Shown here in pieces: positions 11,586 through 16,786 of a stretch of 53,461 bases of DNA. A program made the translations under genes and the position numbers. The number at the start of each line of letters is the position of its first letter. Position 1 is the first letter of the stretch. The stretch lies in UHGV virus genome UHGV-0032033. One strand, 5' to 3'. Origin of the DNA: a virus. The notes beneath the pieces are model-generated. The model was given only the letters and a program-made list of their open reading frames with translations, had not been told where the DNA came from and ran no database searches.

Positions 11586-13007
11586 TTAAAAAGATGCGTT
11601 GGTATGGTTATTTCGTTGGGAGAATCGGCTTGTCGCCGGACGTTGTTGCATTGACTGGATGCAAGCGGACGCTGCGCGGGCCTGGTCACAAGGGAGGATA
11701 TTGCCGTTGTCGTCAAATCGCTGGTAAACAGTCCCCGTTTTCCCGTGACGGTTTTTTGAAACGATGATCTCCATGTATTCGCGGGCAACTGATTGTTCGT
11801 TGTAGTAGCCGTCACGGTAAACCATGATGATCCGGTCCGCGTCTTGTTCAAGATTACCGGAATCGCGCAGATCAGAATTGTTCGGGCGCTTGTTCGGTCG
11901 TTCTTCAACGCGGCGGGATAATTGCGCCAGTGCCGCCACTGGCACGCGCAACTCTTTCGCCATCATTTTCAATGACCACGACAATTGCCCTACAGCGAGA
12001 TCATGACGTTCGGCCTTAGCCAGTTTCATTAACCCGATGTAGTCAATCATAACCATCCCCAGGTTAGGATGGTCCTGTTTCATCCGTTCGACGGTGGCGC
12101 GTATTTCCTCGACCGTTAACTGCGATGCGTCAACAATCCACACATCGAGATCGGCAAGGGCGCTCATTCCCTGGGCGACGTGCGCCCAACCTTCGTCATC
12201 CAGTTTTACCGGATTACGAAGGCAATCCGTTGATAAGTTCCCAGCGCCAGCTATAGCGCGTTCAGTCATCTGATCGAGCGACATTTCAAGCGTAAACAGC
12301 AAAACGCCGACCCGTTGACCTTCGCTGCCAGGGTATGGACGTTCAGCCGCCGCGCGGGCAATTGCCAACGCCAACGCAGATTTACCAGACCCTGGGCGTC
12401 CGGCGATAAGCACCAGATCAGTAGCGTTAATGCCTCCTAACATTTCGTCGAGTGGGTCAATCCCTGTTTTGATGTTGTCAGAGTTAACGCCACACTCCAT
12501 GCGCTTACTTAGCACTTCCGTGTATTCCTGTACCGCGTCGCGCAACAGCACCGGAATAATCTTGTCTTTCGTTACTTTTAATTTTGAATACCGGGAATCA
12601 AAATATTTCATCGTCTCCCTGACAACTTCAAGCGTCCCGGTTTCCAGCTTGTAGCGGATATCTTCCATCAGTTCCAACATTTGCCGCCGCTGATATTCCT
12701 CCTGCAATAGCGCGGCGTACCCCTTCAGGTTGGCAGCCGAAGGACACGATCGCGCCGTTTGCATTAGCGGGATGAAGTTTTCGTTACCGATTTCATCACC
12801 GACCATCAGCGCGTCAATAAGGTTTCTGTTTCTAGCTTGCGCCCGGATGATCTCAAACGCTCGTTTATATAGTGGAATGGTGAAGACTTCAGGATCGAGC
12901 GTAGCAAGAACATCTTGCGCGTTAGGAGTAAGCCCGCCTAACAGGAGACCACCTATCACAGCCGCTTCCCGTTCCTGGCGTAATGAATTTACTTGCTCAG
13001 TCACCAT
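11586..13007 (-). CDS. dnaB: replicative DNA helicase, DnaB family
   Basis: 473 aa; Walker A GRPGSGKSALALAIA, N-terminal DnaB-like domain, C-terminal RecA-like core motifs. Confidence 0.85.
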   Translation of the reverse strand: MVTEQVNSLRQEREAAVIGGLLLGGLTPNAQDVLATLDPEVFTIPLYKRAFEIIRAQARNRNLIDALMVGDEIGNENFIPLMQTARSCPSAANLKGYAALLQEEYQRRQMLELMEDIRYKLETGTLEVVRETMKYFDSRYSKLKVTKDKIIPVLLRDAVQEYTEVLSKRMECGVNSDNIKTGIDPLDEMLGGINATDLVLIAGRPGSGKSALALAIARAAAERPYPGSEGQRVGVLLFTLEMSLDQMTERAIAGAGNLSTDCLRNPVKLDDEGWAHVAQGMSALADLDVWIVDASQLTVEEIRATVERMKQDHPNLGMVMIDYIGLMKLAKAERHDLAVGQLSWSLKMMAKELRVPVAALAQLSRRVEERPNKRPNNSDLRDSGNLEQDADRIIMVYRDGYYNEQSVAREYMEIIVSKNRHGKTGTVYQRFDDNGNILPCDQARAASACIQSMQQRPATSRFSQRNNHTNASF

Positions 13008-13025: not shown

Positions 13026-14144
13026 TTACAAAATGGAATATTCAGGGTAATAAACAAAGCGCCCGATCTCCCCATAATCAGGACTGTAAATTATTACCGC
13101 AGCCAGACGCCGCGACCGCCAGCCGCCATTCGTTGAATAAGCGTCTTTGCCCGCTAACGTGCCGTGATGTTCTACGATCCCTAACGATGTTTCTACAACA
13201 GACTGGTGATGAAGATGGCCCGTATGAGCGTAAACCGCCGCCGACTTGCCGAAATCCTCCCGCCAGTCAGAGATGCAGGCAGCTAACAAATTTTCGGGTT
13301 TTTTGATAGTGTGACCGTGATGATAGGCAAGGAATGTTTTGCCGTACTGTGTGTGGTGGACGATAGCAGGGGACACGTCAACCGTCACGCGCGGTTCATC
13401 TTCGTAAAAAGCAGCCAGCGCCGCACGTAGCCAAATCATCCCTGATTGATCATGATTTCCGCTAAGCACCTGGATCTCGACATCCTTATGATTTAGCAAC
13501 ATCTTCCCGACAGCACGCCGGACCGACCGGATCGCCACGTAAACAAGTTTTGCGTAGCGTGAATCACAATCCAAAACGTGATTACTTGATGGCGTCACTG
13601 GTAACAGTCCGTCAGTGTGGAGCACATCCCCGCCTAACAGCAAAACAGCTTTTTCAGACATCGGTGCAGCGCCTACCGCGTAGTCGAAGAAATCATTTAG
13701 CACGCGCTCAGCGATCCCAGTGTCGTAGCTCTCGCCGCATTCTGCCTTGTGAGCAAGCGCCCCGATATGCAGATCAAATACCGGATAAAGGGCCAGGCTT
13801 TTTTGGAAATCAATTTCCGGCACTGGCACGGCCTCCGCGCGGGGTATTTCTTCCGTGAATGCATCACAAGCCGATTGCATTAGCCTTTCCATTTCATCGC
13901 GATCACGGGCTGTTTTAATCCAGCGCATAATCACATTGCCATCCTTATCGACGAGCAATGACTCACCATTGACGCCAAAACCCGGCGCGCGACGCGTGGA
14001 TATTAAACCGCGTTTCGCCAACCGTGCGCCCAGGCGTTCGACGTTGCGTTTTGCCATGCCATATTTTTCTGCTATTTGCTTGTAAGTTTTCCCCTTGTTG
14101 TACTCAGCGATCAGTTCCTCATCGCTGATCTTTCTTTGTGACAT
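13026..14144 (-). CDS. HTH domain fused to calcineurin-like metallophosphoesterase
   Basis: N-terminal HTH (TYKQIAEKYGMAKRNVERLGARLAKRGLI); C-terminal phosphoesterase motifs DLHIG, GGDVLHTD, LSGNHD, HTGHLHH; occupies helicase-loader position between initiator and DnaB. Confidence 0.6.
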   Translation of the reverse strand: MSQRKISDEELIAEYNKGKTYKQIAEKYGMAKRNVERLGARLAKRGLISTRRAPGFGVNGESLLVDKDGNVIMRWIKTARDRDEMERLMQSACDAFTEEIPRAEAVPVPEIDFQKSLALYPVFDLHIGALAHKAECGESYDTGIAERVLNDFFDYAVGAAPMSEKAVLLLGGDVLHTDGLLPVTPSSNHVLDCDSRYAKLVYVAIRSVRRAVGKMLLNHKDVEIQVLSGNHDQSGMIWLRAALAAFYEDEPRVTVDVSPAIVHHTQYGKTFLAYHHGHTIKKPENLLAACISDWREDFGKSAAVYAHTGHLHHQSVVETSLGIVEHHGTLAGKDAYSTNGGWRSRRLAAVIIYSPDYGEIGRFVYYPEYSIL

Positions 14145-14537
14145 AACGTTACTTCCTCATGTTTACAGAATGTATATTTATTTTCCGTAAAACGCGCTAC
14201 AACGCAAAATTCCACCGCGTAACCCACTTGTAAGGGTGCAGTGTCTTTTTTGCGCCAGAGGCGCTATCAGGTGGCTAATTTTTGATTTACAGACTGGTAG
14301 GTAGGTTATGGATTAACGAGAAGGTACAAGCCGCCGAACAAAGCGACGTTAACAGCGATTGCCGCAGCGATGGCAAGCCAGGGCGAAAACGTGTTTACCG
14401 TCCATTTTAAAATCCTCTCTGTAACGCTCTATAACGAGCTAATCGCAAAAAGGTAAGAAGTGTAGCACCATATGCGATTTAGCTCGCTGGTGAGGTTGTT
14501 TTGTGGGTAATTTTGGATTTTTGCGGATCGTGGTTGG

Positions 14538-15566
14538 TCAAAGAACGCCAGCGCGTGTATCACGTAGCGTTTTTGGTTTAAGCAGGAAATCAAGTGTCGC
14601 AGTAAAGCCATTGCCGAAGTAAAAATCTGAAGCCGTGTTTTTGAACGTTTCGAAGTAGGCGACAAAGCCGTTAATGCTTTTGTCTTTCAGGTAGTCAGTG
14701 AACGCATAGATCTTGCGTTCAAGATCCCGATCCAGTTCGGCAGGTGGTAACAGGCCGTCGAATGTCTGGTTAAATGCTGATACCACGACAGCAGAGTTAA
14801 CCGTAGCTGTAACTCTTCGCCATTGTTCAGCCTTTGCCAGATATTCATCAAAGCGGTTTACCCTTGCGATCTTTATCGGTTCAGGTTTAAACGACCACGT
14901 TTCCGCTATCCAGTCGATAACCATGATCAGATCTTCTTCAGTGTATGCACTGCGTGTTTTTGTCTCCTTCAGCAGCTTGATAAAGTATTTTTTCTCCTTA
15001 TGTTTGCTATTAAACTTGTTGTTATAGTGATCGAGTACGCGCGACGCTGCCAAATCAGCCGCCTGATCTTCTTCGCTGATAGGCCCGTCTTTTTCCAATA
15101 CACGGAGTGTATTGTTTTTAATGTTCTCTTTACTGGTTATATATGACTGATTAGGGTGTCTCTCTGACACCACCCCCGGTGTCACAGTGACACTACCCTG
15201 GTGTCTCTCTGACACTACCCCCGGTGTCACAGTGACACTACCCTGGTGTCTCTCTGACACTACCCCCGGTGTCACAGTGACACTACCCTGCAATGATGGC
15301 AAGACGATGACATAGAAATTACTTGTTTGCTCTTTTCCTCCTATTAGATAACGAGGTTGTTTAATTAATAACCCTTTCTCACAAAGAGCATCAATAGCCC
15401 GCATAGCTGTACTTTTACCTATTTCGCATTGCTTCGCTATGTGCTGGTAAGAAGGGTAACATTCGCCGTTATCGTTAGCGTTATCAGCCAACTTTAACAG
15501 CACCAGTTTGTGCATTGGGTTTCCGACCTCAGTATGGAATACCTCGACCATTAGCCGCATACTCAT
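14538..15566 (-). CDS. replication initiation protein (lambda O-like architecture) containing the iteron origin
   Basis: N-terminal HTH domain (KLVLLKLADNANDNGECYPSYQHIAKQCEIGKSTAMRAIDALCEKGLLIK); central linker encoded by 3 x 45-bp iterons (GSVTVTPGVVSERHQ x3). Confidence 0.65.
   Translation of the reverse strand: MSMRLMVEVFHTEVGNPMHKLVLLKLADNANDNGECYPSYQHIAKQCEIGKSTAMRAIDALCEKGLLIKQPRYLIGGKEQTSNFYVIVLPSLQGSVTVTPGVVSERHQGSVTVTPGVVSERHQGSVTVTPGVVSERHPNQSYITSKENIKNNTLRVLEKDGPISEEDQAADLAASRVLDHYNNKFNSKHKEKKYFIKLLKETKTRSAYTEEDLIMVIDWIAETWSFKPEPIKIARVNRFDEYLAKAEQWRRVTATVNSAVVVSAFNQTFDGLLPPAELDRDLERKIYAFTDYLKDKSINGFVAYFETFKNTASDFYFGNGFTATLDFLLKPKTLRDTRAGVL
15155..15289. repeat. origin iterons: three tandem 45-bp repeats, each with two GGTGTC-N4/5-GACAC palindromes
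   Basis: ggtgtctctctgacac(t/c)acccccggtgtcacagtgacactaccct repeated 3x within initiator ORF, adjacent AT-rich stretch at ~15121-15150. Confidence 0.8.
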
Positions 15567-15587
15567 AAATATTGGCCTCCTGATAAA

Positions 15588-15833
15588 CTAGAACATCAAC
15601 TGATAAACACAGAAGAAACCAGGTAGCTTGCTGATAAGACCATTTCTTTCAAGTTGATGCAGCGCAGAAACAGCATCGTGTAACGTAATTTCACACATTA
15701 CAGAGATCTCTTCCGGTGTGACTTCGCTTTTGCCGTTACATCCAGCCTTTGTTGCCAGCGCAATTAAGATGAGTTTTTGCGCCGGATCATTGTTATTCAG
15801 GCGAATATCAAAAGCCTTGCGCACGTAATACAT
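15588..15833 (-). CDS. small HTH protein, first gene of leftward early operon (Cro/cII position); paralogous to initiator N-domain
   Basis: RBS aggagaaaagaat-ATG; 81 aa from internal Met of track ORF; KLILIALATKAGCNGKSEVTPEEISVMCEITLHDAVSALHQLERNGLISK mirrors initiator N-terminus. Confidence 0.45.
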   Translation of the reverse strand: MYYVRKAFDIRLNNNDPAQKLILIALATKAGCNGKSEVTPEEISVMCEITLHDAVSALHQLERNGLISKLPGFFCVYQLMF

Positions 15834-15911
15834 ATTCTTTTCTCCTATGGTTAGAATGAACGCGCGGGCGGGCATCCCATTAGCATTAGATAGCAGTGAC
15901 TGACCGCTCAA

Positions 15912-16138
15912 CAGATCCCGCCGTTGCGTGATATTTGTTTTTCGCTTCGCAGCGACACCGGATTTTTAAAGAGCTTAAGGTAAGTGCCTTTTTGTGCCTT
16001 CCGTTATCTTTTTCCTTGCGTCTTTGCAAGTATGGCCTTACCTTGTCTGCAAGTTTACAAAATGGAATTTTAAGATCAAGGCTTAAAATACACGTTTTGT
16101 GACTTGCATCAAACTTTTTGAGGTTATAGGGTAGCGAC
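15912..16138. promoter_or_regulatory. divergent immunity-region control region (cI promoter / leftward early promoter, operators)
   Basis: Intergenic between divergent cI and early operon; palindromes CTTGCgtctttGCAAG (~16015-16030) and CTTGtctgCAAG (~16042-16053); 16-mer GTTTACAAAATGGAAT at ~16053; cI ATG lacks SD (leaderless-like). Confidence 0.5.
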
Positions 16139-16786
16139 ATGAAAACAAAATGGTATGACTTAGCAAAGCAGCTCATGCGGGCGCAGGGCATGAGTCAGGA
16201 TTCACTCGCAGATCTCATGGGGATAACTAAAGGCGGCCTGTCACACTGGCTGAATGGTCGCCGCGAGCCTAATCTTGAAGATATTGCGCGGATTATGCGG
16301 GCGCTTGGTCGTCGGCAGTTTACTGTTACACATGACGGCATGGTCATTGATGATTCTGTTTCTAATACACTTCAGGCCGCGCCGCCGCGTGATTTAGGTA
16401 GTTACCCGGTTATTGACTGGAAGGACACAGTAAACAATATGGATGACACAAGGCGATCAGCATTACCACACGTTACGACTAGCGTTATTTGTTCAGATGA
16501 TAGTTACTGGCTGGTTGCCAAAGGTGAATCAATGAACGCGCCGCAGGGGTTGAGCATCCCTGCTGGGACGATGATACTTGTAGACCCGCACGCGCCAGCT
16601 ATTGACGGCAAACTGGTTATAGCCCAGCTTGAGGAAGGGCAGATACCGACGTTTAAACAGTTGATTATTGATGGAGGTCAAAGGCTTTTACGTTCGCTCA
16701 ATCCGCTGTATCCGCCAATCCCTATGAATCCAGAATCAAAAATTATAGGCGTGGTGGTTGATGCGAAGATCGTAAACCTGCCATAA
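16139..16786 (+). CDS. cI: cI-like repressor (XRE HTH + S24/LexA-type autopeptidase)
   Basis: N-terminal HTH (SQDSLADLMGITKGGLSHWLNGRREP), C-terminal S24 motifs (VAKGESMNAP, IPTFKQLIIDGG); divergent from early operon. Confidence 0.85.
   Translation: MKTKWYDLAKQLMRAQGMSQDSLADLMGITKGGLSHWLNGRREPNLEDIARIMRALGRRQFTVTHDGMVIDDSVSNTLQAAPPRDLGSYPVIDWKDTVNNMDDTRRSALPHVTTSVICSDDSYWLVAKGESMNAPQGLSIPAGTMILVDPHAPAIDGKLVIAQLEEGQIPTFKQLIIDGGQRLLRSLNPLYPPIPMNPESKIIGVVVDAKIVNLP

What the first reader, a model, noticed from the sequence alone, without database searches (positions are those of the whole stretch)
15155..15289. Origin iterons embedded in the replication initiator gene
Three perfect tandem 45-bp repeats lie inside the initiator ORF and encode a repeated GSVTVTPGVVSERHQ linker. 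Each repeat carries two palindromic sites (GGTGTCtctctGACAC and GGTGTCacagTGACAC), giving six dyad sites at ~22-bp spacing next to an AT-rich stretch. This matches the lambda ori-in-O arrangement.
Basis: partly seen in the sequence, partly recalled or inferred. Interest (0 to 1): 0.35.

Follow-up and report, generated by a model that had tools for sequence, protein, structure and literature searches.

The report
Phage replication origin inside initiator gene
The repeats are almost certainly the replication origin of a temperate E. coli phage of the mEpimmI (mEp021-like) group, sitting inside the gene for the protein that should bind them, as in phages lambda and P22; it is a new example of a well-known design.

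Summary
Window 15155-15289 is a 3 x 45-bp tandem array with one synonymous mismatch. It contains six 15-bp dyads, GTGTC-N5-GACAC, spaced 23/22 bp, and this motif occurs nowhere else in the 53-kb window.

The array lies in a minus-strand gene (14538-15566) for a 342-aa protein. That protein has an HTH_36 winged-helix N-domain, a predicted disordered linker encoded by the repeats, and a C-terminal tail homologous to that of P22 gp18. A helicase 56% identical to P22 gp12 lies downstream.

The evidence points to a DNA element, not a protein repeat:
- Adjacent half-units are read in different frames.
- Three iteron classes among relatives differ symmetrically at one arm position, and each class has its own residues in the predicted recognition helix.
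- Relatives carry 1, 2 or 3 units.
- Phages with an unrelated N-domain have different repeats at the same place.
- Distant homologues (SfV, Min27, a Vibrio phage and an Aggregatibacter phage) have 21-24-bp dyad repeats there too.

On the promoter-distal side come a 40-bp stretch of 75% A+T and then a palindrome, the same order as in lambda ori. The initiator is not a lambda O family member. The origin reading is supported, but only by computation. It is a new member of a known kind and of modest interest.

The parts
14538..15566 (-). Replication initiator gene (342 aa). It has a winged-helix N-domain, a disordered linker and a helical C-domain.
   Evidence: ORF. Pfam HTH_36 aa 16-67, 4.5e-15. 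PHROGs 8540, 391 and 428, 'replication initiation (O-like)'. AF2 model.
15291..15566 (-). Coding region for the N-terminal winged-helix domain (aa 1-92), the presumed iteron-binding domain. The predicted recognition helix is aa 51-63 (KSTAMRAIDALCE).
   Evidence: Residues 50, 52, 59, 60, 63 and 68 co-vary with iteron class.
15155..15289 (.). Iteron array: 3 x 45 bp, that is six half-units of 23/22 bp. It encodes linker residues 93-138.
   Evidence: Relatives are shown.
15156..15170 (.). Dyad site 1, GTGTC-TCTCT-GACAC. It is the site nearest the AT-rich stretch.
15179..15193 (.). Dyad site 2, GTGTCAC-A-GTGACAC.
15201..15215 (.). Dyad site 3, GTGTC-TCTCT-GACAC.
15224..15238 (.). Dyad site 4, GTGTCAC-A-GTGACAC.
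15246..15260 (.). Dyad site 5, GTGTC-TCTCT-GACAC.
15269..15283 (.). Dyad site 6, GTGTCAC-A-GTGACAC.
15115..15154 (.). AT-rich stretch of 40 bp (75% A+T; the sense strand is 62% purine). It is the candidate DNA-unwinding element, on the promoter-distal side of the iterons.
   Evidence: It is conserved in position, with 33-45 bp at 72-82% A+T, in type-A and type-B relatives.
15096..15114 (.). Perfect palindrome CAATACAC-GGA-GTGTATTG bordering the AT-rich stretch.
   Evidence: It is one of about 9 perfect inverted repeats with arms of 8 bp or more in the window. It is present in 8/10 type-A and 26/27 type-B loci and is read in different frames in the two types.
14541..14801 (-). Coding region for the C-terminal tail (aa 256-342), homologous to the C-terminus of P22 gp18. 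It is the presumed helicase-recruiting part.
   Evidence: hhalign probability 97.1%, E 5.9e-11, 37% identity.
11586..13007 (-). DnaB-type replicative helicase gene, the presumed partner loaded at the origin.
   Evidence: Pfam DnaB_C 1e-75. It is 56% identical to P22 gp12.

Best explanation
This is the theta-type replication origin of an mEpimmI-group temperate coliphage, embedded in the linker-coding part of its own initiator gene.

Proposed mechanism (inferred):
1. The early leftward operon expresses the initiator.
2. Dimers of its N-terminal winged-helix domain bind the six dyad sites, which are spaced 22.5 bp apart on average. They build an O-some-like nucleoprotein complex.
3. The strain opens the adjacent 40-bp AT-rich stretch (15115-15154), which is bounded by the palindrome at 15096-15114.
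4. The gp18-like C-terminal tail brings in the phage's own DnaB-type helicase (11586-13007).
5. Host primase and polymerase take over.

The repeated peptide GSVTVTPGVVSERHQ is a tolerated by-product lying in a disordered linker. Units are gained and lost by unequal recombination. The third unit is probably an accessory copy, not a requirement.

Shown here: the anatomy, homology, DNA-level constraint and co-variation. Inferred: binding, unwinding and helicase loading.
For: 1. The array is unique in the window and far beyond chance.

2. The host gene encodes an initiator. It has an HTH_36 domain and matches PHROG replication-initiation families. Its C-terminal 87 aa are homologous to P22 gp18, and the downstream helicase is 56% identical to P22 gp12.

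3. The constraint is on the DNA.
- Half-units alternate between two reading frames (offsets 2 and 1), yet they keep GGTAGTGnCA-N4-GncACC in 58 half-units from 14 genomes.
- The encoded peptides differ radically between classes (SERH, QSH, AESN).

4. There is specificity co-variation.
- Arm position 4 changes symmetrically, T/A, A/T or G/C, between the three classes.
- Each class has its own residues in or next to the predicted recognition helix. S52/A60 mark one class, R52/S60 a second, and N50/E59/K63/L68 a third. The association is perfect over 110 proteins.
- A mixed haplotype rules out simple linkage.

5. The module can be swapped. Relatives with an unrelated Lin1244_N N-domain fused to the same C-domain carry 4 x 11-bp GGTCATGA repeats at the same place. 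These are followed by an AT- and purine-rich run and the same palindrome.

6. The feature is family-wide.
- SfV orf39, Min27 'O', Vibrio phage D67 and Aggregatibacter phage S1249 have N-domains 51-57% identical to this one. Each has 3-5 dyad repeats of 21-24 bp right after the N-domain.
- 55 of 127 distant representatives show peptide repeats of period 7, 8 or 15 aa at that point.

7. The order is the same as in lambda and P22: N-domain codons, then iterons (lambda spacing 20/24/23 bp), then an AT-rich stretch, then a palindrome (PMC7466680).

8. The AT-rich stretch is among the least stable 0.4-0.5% of the window.

9. AF2 predicts residues 91-163 to be disordered.

10. Copy number is 1, 2 or 3 units in relatives. 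Plaque-forming mEp phages have 2 units. Three-unit arrays carry lineage-specific spacer variants, so they arose by local duplication.
Against: - There is no experimental evidence for binding or for initiation at this site in any mEpimmI phage. The group's genome paper does not mention an origin.
- Two other stretches inside the gene, 14977-15026 and 15312-15372, are about as easily melted as the candidate unwinding element, so that assignment is not unique.
- The palindrome is missing in 3 relatives. It also scores as a weak terminator on the antisense strand.
- Co-variation of the N-domain and the iterons is confounded by tight physical linkage and shared ancestry.
- The AF2 model is of low overall confidence (mean pLDDT 58.6). 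Fold matches are non-significant.
Confidence: 0.8

Rival explanations
1. The repeats are real initiator-binding sites, but they serve autoregulation, copy control or handcuffing, or act as a fork barrier. The site of unwinding is elsewhere in the genome.
For: - Iterons can be regulatory in plasmids (my own background knowledge).
- SPP1 gp38 bound at a second origin is proposed to stall forks (PMC6316719).
- Other low-stability stretches exist nearby.
Against: - There is no second cluster of the motif anywhere in the 53-kb window.
- There is no other tandem array.
- The sequence iterons, AT-rich stretch, palindrome is conserved even when the iteron type is swapped. It matches the order in the mapped origin of lambda and the similarity-annotated origin of P22.
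Confidence: 0.08
2. This is a neutral or protein-level minisatellite. On this view it is a slippage-prone repeat that only sets linker length or composition, with no function as DNA.
For: - Copy number is polymorphic at 1 to 3 units.
- The units within one genome are nearly identical, as expected after a recent duplication.
- The encoded region is predicted to be disordered.
Against: - The 22/23-bp half-units are read in two frames, yet they keep the same DNA motif.
- Dyad symmetry is kept through symmetric changes.
- The peptide sequence is not conserved between classes.
- Unrelated N-domains bring different repeats to the same place.
- Homologues 51-57% identical keep dyad repeats there.
Confidence: 0.05
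3. The dyads act as RNA hairpins in the early transcript. They could be nut/boxB-like sites, translational pause sites or processing sites.
For: - Each site can form a 5-7-bp stem with a short loop.
- One stem position shows both-sided changes.
- These phages use an N-like antiterminator (PMC11893012).
Against: - The three mapped nut sites of mEp021 lie elsewhere: upstream of gp15, upstream of gp17 and after gp32.
- All sites of the AESN class and some of the QSH class carry a mismatch inside the 5-bp stem.
- There is no Rfam match.
- Type-B phages replace the sites with 11-bp direct repeats that have no comparable hairpins.
Confidence: 0.03
4. The sites are bound by the small stand-alone winged-helix paralogue encoded just upstream (15588-15833), not by the initiator.
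For: The small protein is a paralogue of the initiator N-domain, 34% identical with E 5e-8. It is always adjacent.
Against: Its recognition-helix region is the same in phages of all three iteron classes (L001, L002 and L004). The initiator's recognition helix, in contrast, tracks the class.
Confidence: 0.04

Closest known systems
Lambda ori inside gene O, including the Stx-phage variants with six iterons
   Same: - The origin lies in the middle of the initiator gene, directly after the N-terminal DNA-binding domain codons.
- The iterons are imperfect or perfect inverted repeats. They are spaced about 22 bp apart (lambda 20/24/23 bp; here 23/22 bp).
- An AT-rich, purine-skewed stretch and then a palindrome lie on the promoter-distal side.
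- Extra iterons lengthen the protein linker: 13 aa in P27 and 933W, 15 aa per unit here.
- Sources: and PMC7466680.
   Different: - The initiator N-domain is HTH_36, not Phage_rep_O, and hhalign finds no homology to lambda O (5% probability).
- The iteron sequences are unrelated.
- The phage supplies a DnaB-type helicase instead of a P-type loader for the host DnaB.
- The phage group is described as non-lambdoid (PMC11893012).
P22 gene 18 / gene 12 replication module, with ori annotated inside gene 18
   Same: - The C-terminal tail of the initiator is homologous to gp18 (97% probability).
- The helicase is 56% identical to gp12.
- The origin is inside the initiator gene, with repeats, an AT-rich run and a palindrome.
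   Different: - The P22 gp18 N-domain is Phage_rep_O, so the origin-recognition module (N-domain plus iterons) has been exchanged.
- An exonuclease-like gene lies between the initiator and the helicase here.
HTH_36-type initiators of SfV (orf39), ST64B, Min27 and Stx2a_F451 ('O'), Vibrio phage D67 and Aggregatibacter phage S1249
   Same: - The N-domains are 51-57% identical.
- In the four phages read here (SfV, Min27, D67, S1249) there are 3-5 direct repeats of 21-24 bp with a dyad core immediately after the N-domain. Examples are GGTAGTGCA-N5-TTCACC in SfV and CCTAGTGAC-N5-GTCACC in D67, compared with GGTAGTGTC-N5-GACACC here.
   Different: - The C-terminal domains and partner proteins differ.
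- Those phages have a conserved R-T-S-H-S-F-E-P-V segment after the repeats where this phage has its AT-rich stretch and palindrome.
- I found no published origin analysis for them in the library searched.
SPP1 oriL inside gene 38 (replisome organizer G38P, loader G39P, helicase G40P)
   Same: Direct repeats plus an AT-rich unwinding element lie within the gene of the origin-binding protein. The phage encodes its own DnaB-family helicase (PMC6316719).
   Different: - SPP1 has a second origin (oriR) and a dedicated loader.
- The only sequence link is a sub-threshold Phg_2220_C match (17.1 bits against a cut-off of 27).

Membership tests
Lambda-type origin architecture (ori embedded in the initiator gene) | A cluster of direct repeats with internal dyad symmetry inside the initiator gene, just 3' of the DNA-binding-domain codons. 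| tested here: met
   There are six dyads at 15156-15283. They start at codon 93, after the winged-helix domain of aa 1-92. In lambda the iterons start at about codon 117, after Phage_rep_O aa 22-115.
Lambda-type origin architecture (ori embedded in the initiator gene) | Repeat spacing of about two helical turns. | tested here: met
   Spacing is 23/22 bp, alternating, in all 14 genomes examined. Lambda has 20/24/23 bp.
Lambda-type origin architecture (ori embedded in the initiator gene) | An AT-rich, easily melted stretch flanking the iterons on the promoter-distal side, followed by a palindrome. | tested here: met
   - 15115-15154 is 75% A+T and in the least stable 0.4-0.5% of windows.
- The palindrome is at 15096-15114.
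- This order is conserved in 34 of 37 related loci.
Lambda-type origin architecture (ori embedded in the initiator gene) | Iteron sequence co-varies with the initiator's N-terminal domain (a modular specificity unit). | tested here: met
   - Three iteron classes match three recognition-helix variants.
- An unrelated N-domain brings unrelated repeats.
- Caveat: the N-domain and the iterons are tightly linked and share ancestry.
Lambda-type origin architecture (ori embedded in the initiator gene) | The initiator binds the iterons, and replication starts there. | not testable with these tools
   This needs EMSA or footprinting, a mini-replicon assay, or origin mapping.
Lambda O protein family (Pfam PF04492 Phage_rep_O) | The N-terminal domain matches Phage_rep_O. 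| tested here: not met
   - There is no Phage_rep_O hit at E<=0.01. HTH_36 scores 55.6 bits against a cut-off of 25.
- hhalign against lambda O gives 5% probability.
- Lambda O and P22 gp18 both hit PF04492 strongly.
P22 18/12-type replication module | The initiator C-terminus is homologous to gp18, and a gp12-like DnaB-type helicase is encoded downstream. | tested here: met
   aa 256-342 align with gp18 aa 181-271 (97.1% probability, E 5.9e-11). The helicase is 56% identical to gp12.
P22 18/12-type replication module | A gp18-type (Phage_rep_O) origin-recognition domain and P22-type iterons. | tested here: not met
   The N-domain is HTH_36. The iterons are unrelated to the P22 TCGGTAAAAC-type repeats.
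HTH_36-type phage initiators (SfV orf39 / Min27 'O' group) | A Pfam HTH_36 N-domain above the gathering score, homologous to that of these phage proteins. | tested here: met
   55.6 bits against a cut-off of 25. tblastn identity to SfV, ST64B, Min27 and the others is 51-57%. SfV orf39 and Min27 O also hit HTH_36.
HTH_36-type phage initiators (SfV orf39 / Min27 'O' group) | An array of dyad repeats of 21-24 bp directly after the N-domain codons. | tested here: met
   All four homologues examined at the DNA level have one. 55 of 127 protein representatives pass a strict peptide-repeat test at that place.
SPP1 G38P-type replisome organizer | Sequence membership through Phage_rep_org_N or Phg_2220_C domains. 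| tested here: inconclusive
   Phg_2220_C scores only 17.1 bits, below the cut-off of 27. The PHROG 'replisome organizer' family matches only the type-B relative, and weakly.
Plasmid iteron initiators (winged-helix Rep proteins) | Structural similarity of the DNA-binding domain to solved Rep structures. | tested here: inconclusive
   The best Foldseek hit is the 5kbj Rep-DNA complex at E 0.07. All hits have E>0.001. The PDB sequence search found nothing relevant.

The most novel reading that the evidence does not exclude
The window exemplifies a rule for the very large family of HTH_36-type phage and prophage initiators (5145 cluster representatives at E<=1e-3). Under this rule the origin iterons are written into the disordered-linker codons, in alternating reading frames. 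Origin specificity is then switched by a symmetric single-base-pair change at arm position 4 of the dyad, matched by one to four substitutions in the recognition helix. Examples are S52R/A60S for T:A to A:T, and G50N/D59E/E63K for T:A to G:C.

That would give a natural, readable protein-DNA recognition code. It would also explain how co-resident prophages of one immunity group keep their replication origins orthogonal. Copy number (1-3 units) would tune firing.
Probability: 0.35. Interest if true: 0.45.

Novelty: new member of a known kind. Interest (0 to 1): 0.3.

Why it matters
It locates the so far undescribed replication origin of the mEpimmI coliphages, a group reported to be as common in the human gut as the lambdoid phages (PMC11893012). 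It shows that their replication module is a mosaic: a P22-type helicase-recruiting tail and helicase, joined to an exchangeable unit of origin-recognition domain plus iterons.

The three natural iteron and recognition-helix classes, together with the 1-3-unit polymorphism, offer a ready-made test set. They could be used to study initiator specificity, origin incompatibility between related prophages, and how coding and cis-acting constraints share one stretch of DNA. The principle itself has been textbook knowledge since lambda.

Tried and rejected
- **Genome-contig scan.** A scan with an N-domain alignment found no relatives. The patterns came from the extreme N-terminus, and the collection holds one genome per species.
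- **Rfam.** A permissive E-value scan of 14000-16500 gave no hit.
- **Host-factor sites.** No DnaA-box (TTWTNCACA, also relaxed) or IHF consensus lies near the array. GATC sites are not clustered at it.
- **nut/boxB reading.** Rejected, because the mapped nut sites of mEp021 lie elsewhere.
- **Solved structures.** The PDB sequence search was empty. Foldseek against the PDB gave only non-significant generic winged-helix hits.
- **GC skew.** The cumulative minimum falls in the 14-16-kb bin. It coincides with the switch of gene orientation at about 16 kb, so it does not discriminate.
- **Plasmid collection.** The N-domain occurs on non-mobilizable records, many of them about 40-50 kb. These are probably phage-plasmids or circular prophages. 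This is not a clean natural mini-replicon test.
- **Half-site-like match.** GACACCGG at 15947-15961 in the regulatory region is at chance level.
- **Literature.** Searches found no description of an origin in mEpimmI phages or in SfV/Min27-type initiators. The library does not hold most subscription journals, so absence is not proof.
Full report
**1. The observation**

The stretch 15155-15289 is a tandem array of three 45-bp units (Tandem Repeats Finder score 265, 98% matches). It can also be read as 5.9 copies of a 23-bp period. It is the only tandem array detected in the 53,461-bp window.

The units are not strictly perfect. Unit 1 has C at 15171 where units 2 and 3 have T. On the coding strand this is GTG versus GTA (Val), a synonymous difference.

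Each unit consists of a 23-bp and a 22-bp half-unit:
- GGTGTC-TCTCT-GACAC-TACCCCC
- GGTGTC-ACAGT-GACAC-TACCCT

So there are six 15-bp dyads GTGTC-N5-GACAC, starting at 15156, 15179, 15201, 15224, 15246 and 15269. The second type is in fact a 7-bp-arm palindrome, GTGTCAC-A-GTGACAC.

With up to three mismatches, the 21-bp motif GGTGTC-N5-GACACTACCC matches only these six places in the window (0.09 expected by chance). The bare dyad with one mismatch gives the same six.

**2. Context**

The array lies in the minus-strand ORF 14538-15566, which encodes 342 aa. It specifies (Q)GSVTVTPGVVSERH three times.

- The protein has a Pfam HTH_36 domain at aa 16-67 (4.5e-15), with weak DnaD_N and Phg_2220_C matches.
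- It matches PHROG families named 'replication initiation O-like' or 'replication initiation protein'.
- Downstream on the same strand are a 372-aa ORF (PHROG 704, 'DNA repair exonuclease') and a DnaB-type helicase.
- Upstream are a small winged-helix ORF and a divergent cI-like repressor.

The DNA is 85-89% identical to the mEpimmI coliphages mEp013, mEp044, mEp021 and mEp554. In those phages the gene is annotated 'DNA replication protein O' or 'putative replication protein'. The genome paper on this group does not mention an origin or iterons (PMC11893012).

**3. The repeat is a DNA-level element, not a protein repeat**

On the sense strand the half-units start at offsets 2 and 1 modulo 3. 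Neighbouring half-units are therefore translated in different frames (G-V-V-S-E-R-H versus G-S-V-T-V-T-P). Even so, all 58 half-units from 14 genomes keep gGGTaGTGnCA-N4-GncACC with strictly alternating 23/22-bp spacing.

The encoded peptides are not conserved between relatives. Examples are VVSERH, VV[ST]QSH and VVAESN, or VTVTP, DTESP and GTKQP.

An AlphaFold2 model has low overall confidence (mean pLDDT 58.6). It gives:
- a winged helix in the N-domain, with helices 17-29, 40-47 and 51-63 and a wing at 67-70/84-87;
- residues 91-163 with pLDDT below 35 and no secondary structure, that is a disordered linker encoded by the iterons, the AT-rich stretch and the palindrome;
- a confident helical domain from residue 165.

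**4. Specificity classes**

Among 110 close homologues there are three repeat classes:

| Class | Dyad arms (window + strand) |
|---|---|
| SERH | GTGTC...GACAC |
| QSH | GTGAC...G[A/T]CAC |
| AESN | GTTGC...GCCAC |

On an alignment of the 22 distinct half-units, arm position 4 changes on both sides together. It is T:A in 12, G:C in 5 and A:T in 3, and is unpaired in 2. No shuffle reached the observed co-variation score (0 of 500), and all slid controls scored lower.

Class membership is perfectly associated with residues in or beside the predicted recognition helix:
- SERH has S52/A60.
- QSH has R52/S60.
- AESN has N50, E59, K63 and L68.

Twelve sequences have a mixed haplotype: H41, E46, S50 and V58 as in QSH, but S52 and A60 as in SERH. 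They carry SERH iterons. Because residue 58 lies between 52 and 60, one crossover cannot explain this pattern.

This is what a dimeric winged-helix protein reading both half-sites would produce. Linkage and shared ancestry remain caveats.

**5. Copy number**

Homologue lengths cluster at 312-317, 327-333 and 342-345 aa, corresponding to 1, 2 and 3 units.

- The plaque-forming mEp phages have two units, that is four dyads.
- Two prophage relatives have a single unit with two dyads (L044, L045).
- The three 3-unit arrays examined each carry their own spacer variant in all units. The window has CACTGT/AGAGA, L006 has CACAGT/AGAGA and L046 has CACTGT/AGAGC.

The 3-unit arrays therefore arose by local duplication in separate lineages. 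The third unit in the window is probably accessory. For comparison, lambda needs only the two AT-proximal iterons in vitro, and Stx phages carry six (PMC7466680).

**6. Module swapping**

Twenty-seven related IMG/VR phages have the same C-terminal domain fused to an unrelated N-domain (Pfam Lin1244_N). At the same position they carry 4 x 11-bp GGTCATGA repeats instead.

In both types the repeats are followed by 33-45 bp of 72-82% A+T, purine-rich on the sense strand. Then comes the palindrome ATACAC-N3-GTGTAT. It is present in 8 of 10 type-A and 26 of 27 type-B loci and absent from L004, L010 and L033.

The palindrome is read in different frames in the two types (..NNTLRVL.. versus ..DIYTSCIV..), so here too it is the DNA that is conserved.

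In the window:
- The palindrome is CAATACAC-GGA-GTGTATTG at 15096-15114. It is one of about nine perfect short inverted repeats with arms of 8 bp or more in 53 kb.
- The AT-rich stretch 15115-15154 is 75% A+T. It falls in the least stable 0.4-0.5% of 30-50-bp windows.
- Two other stretches in the gene, 14977-15026 and 15312-15372, are comparably unstable, so the assignment of the unwinding element is plausible but not unique.

**7. Family-wide feature**

A search with the N-domain (aa 1-95) against 1.84 billion cluster representatives found 5145 proteins at E<=1e-3. Of the 127 best representatives that are at least 180 aa long, 55 pass a strict test for tandem peptide repeats of period 7, 8 or 15 aa directly after the N-domain. 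By eye nearly all show them.

Peptides such as GAGDS and VQEIH recur in the same linkers. They are consistent with one DNA motif read in two frames; this is my inference from back-translation, not a DNA-level check.

In annotated phages the N-domain (51-57% identity) occurs in SfV orf39, ST64B, Min27 and Stx2a_F451 'O', Stx2c phages, and Vibrio and Aggregatibacter phages. Four of these were read at the DNA level:

| Phage | Repeat | Copies |
|---|---|---|
| SfV | GGTAGTGCA-N5-TTCACC type | 5 |
| Min27 | GGTGGGGCAGGAGCTGCCC | 3 |
| Vibrio phage D67 | CCTAGTGAC-N5-GTCACC type | 3 |
| Aggregatibacter phage S1249 | AGGTATGCCAGCAGATAGCAC | 4 |

The SfV and D67 units resemble the window's GGTAGTGTC-N5-GACACC.

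**8. Comparison with known systems**

Lambda:
- The annotated iterons start at 39034, 39054, 39078 and 39101 (spacing 20/24/23 bp), right after the Phage_rep_O domain of O.
- They are followed by a purine- and AT-rich run and a palindrome (PMC7466680).

P22:
- The origin is annotated inside gene 18, with repeats, an AT-rich run and a palindrome.
- gp18 is also a Phage_rep_O protein.

The window's initiator:
- It is not a Phage_rep_O protein.
- It shows no homology to lambda O (hhalign 5%).
- Its last 87 residues are homologous to the C-terminus of P22 gp18 (97.1% probability, E 5.9e-11).
- Its helicase is 56% identical to P22 gp12.

So the system works like lambda ori in cis and like the P22 18/12 pair in trans, with a non-orthologous origin-recognition module. 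SPP1 oriL inside gene 38 is a further analogue (PMC6316719).

**9. Rivals**

- RNA hairpin or nut reading. It is disfavoured for four reasons. The mapped nut sites lie elsewhere. AESN-class sites have a stem mismatch. Rfam finds nothing. Type-B phages use plain 11-bp direct repeats.
- Neutral or protein-level minisatellite. It is contradicted by the two-frame conservation and the family-wide dyads.
- Binding by the upstream 81-aa paralogue. It is disfavoured because the paralogue's recognition helix does not track iteron class.
- A purely regulatory role for real initiator-binding sites. It cannot be excluded without experiments. However, there is no second cluster of the motif and no other tandem array in the window.

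**10. Verdict**

It is a new member of a known kind: a lambda/P22-style origin embedded in the initiator gene, here in the mEpimmI phages and with an HTH_36-type initiator. Interest is modest at 0.3. The principle is classical. The added value lies in three things:
- the location of this phage group's origin;
- the mosaic make-up of its replication module;
- a clean natural series of iteron and recognition-helix variants.

Noticed in passing
window 15588-15833 (ORF extends to 15911), minus strand: A small stand-alone winged-helix protein (81 aa from MYYVRK) lies just upstream of the initiator. It is a paralogue of the initiator N-domain (34% identity over 59 aa, E 5e-8; it also matches the N-terminal part of PHROG 4617). 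An 84-aa counterpart, 38% identical, precedes the type-B initiators. Its recognition-helix region does not follow the iteron class. Its function is unknown; it may be a regulator.
   Followed up: partly
window 13026-14144, minus strand: A 372-aa ORF lies between the initiator and the helicase. It has no Pfam hit but a strong match to PHROG 704, 'DNA repair exonuclease' (8e-139). By eye it has metallophosphatase-like motifs (GDxxH, GNHD). Its role in replication is unknown.
   Followed up: partly
L011 3149-3245 (and L012-L038): Related phages carry a different initiator N-domain (Lin1244_N). They have their own 4 x 11-bp GGTCATGA repeats, an AT- and purine-rich run and the same ATACAC-N3-GTGTAT palindrome at the equivalent place. 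This looks like a second origin type in the same phage group.
   Followed up: partly
window 15096-15124, plus strand: The origin-flanking palindrome followed by TTTTTAATGT scores as a weak intrinsic terminator antisense to the initiator gene (8-bp stem with 3 G-C pairs). It could stop antisense transcription into the origin, or it may simply be part of the origin.
   Followed up: no
L002 (mEp021) 1630-2753: mEp021 gp12, annotated as a zinc-ribbon protein, is built from about six tandem repeats of 183-186 bp (76-78% matches). Among the six annotated mEp loci it is seen only in mEp021. The window lacks this gene at that position.
   Followed up: no
window 16048-16108: An imperfect inverted repeat with 27-nt arms (70% complementary, 7-nt spacer) lies in the AT-rich gap between the early minus-strand operon and the cI-like repressor gene. 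It is a probable operator/promoter region. nutL of mEp021 is reported upstream of the repressor gene.
   Followed up: no
L039 (SfV) 1891-1920 and equivalent places in L040-L042: In SfV, 2.5 copies of a 12-bp GAACCAGTCAAA repeat follow the iterons and encode EPVKEPVNEP. A similar stretch (the conserved RTSHSFEPV segment) follows the iterons in the Min27, D67 and S1249 homologues. It may be a second cis element of those origins. The window does not have it.
   Followed up: no
plasmid collection hits H68-H92: The N-domain family also occurs on non-mobilizable 'plasmid' records, many of them about 40-50 kb, from Arsenophonus, Klebsiella, E. coli and Pasteurella. These are probably phage-plasmids or circularised prophages, which might serve as natural replicon tests.
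   Followed up: no
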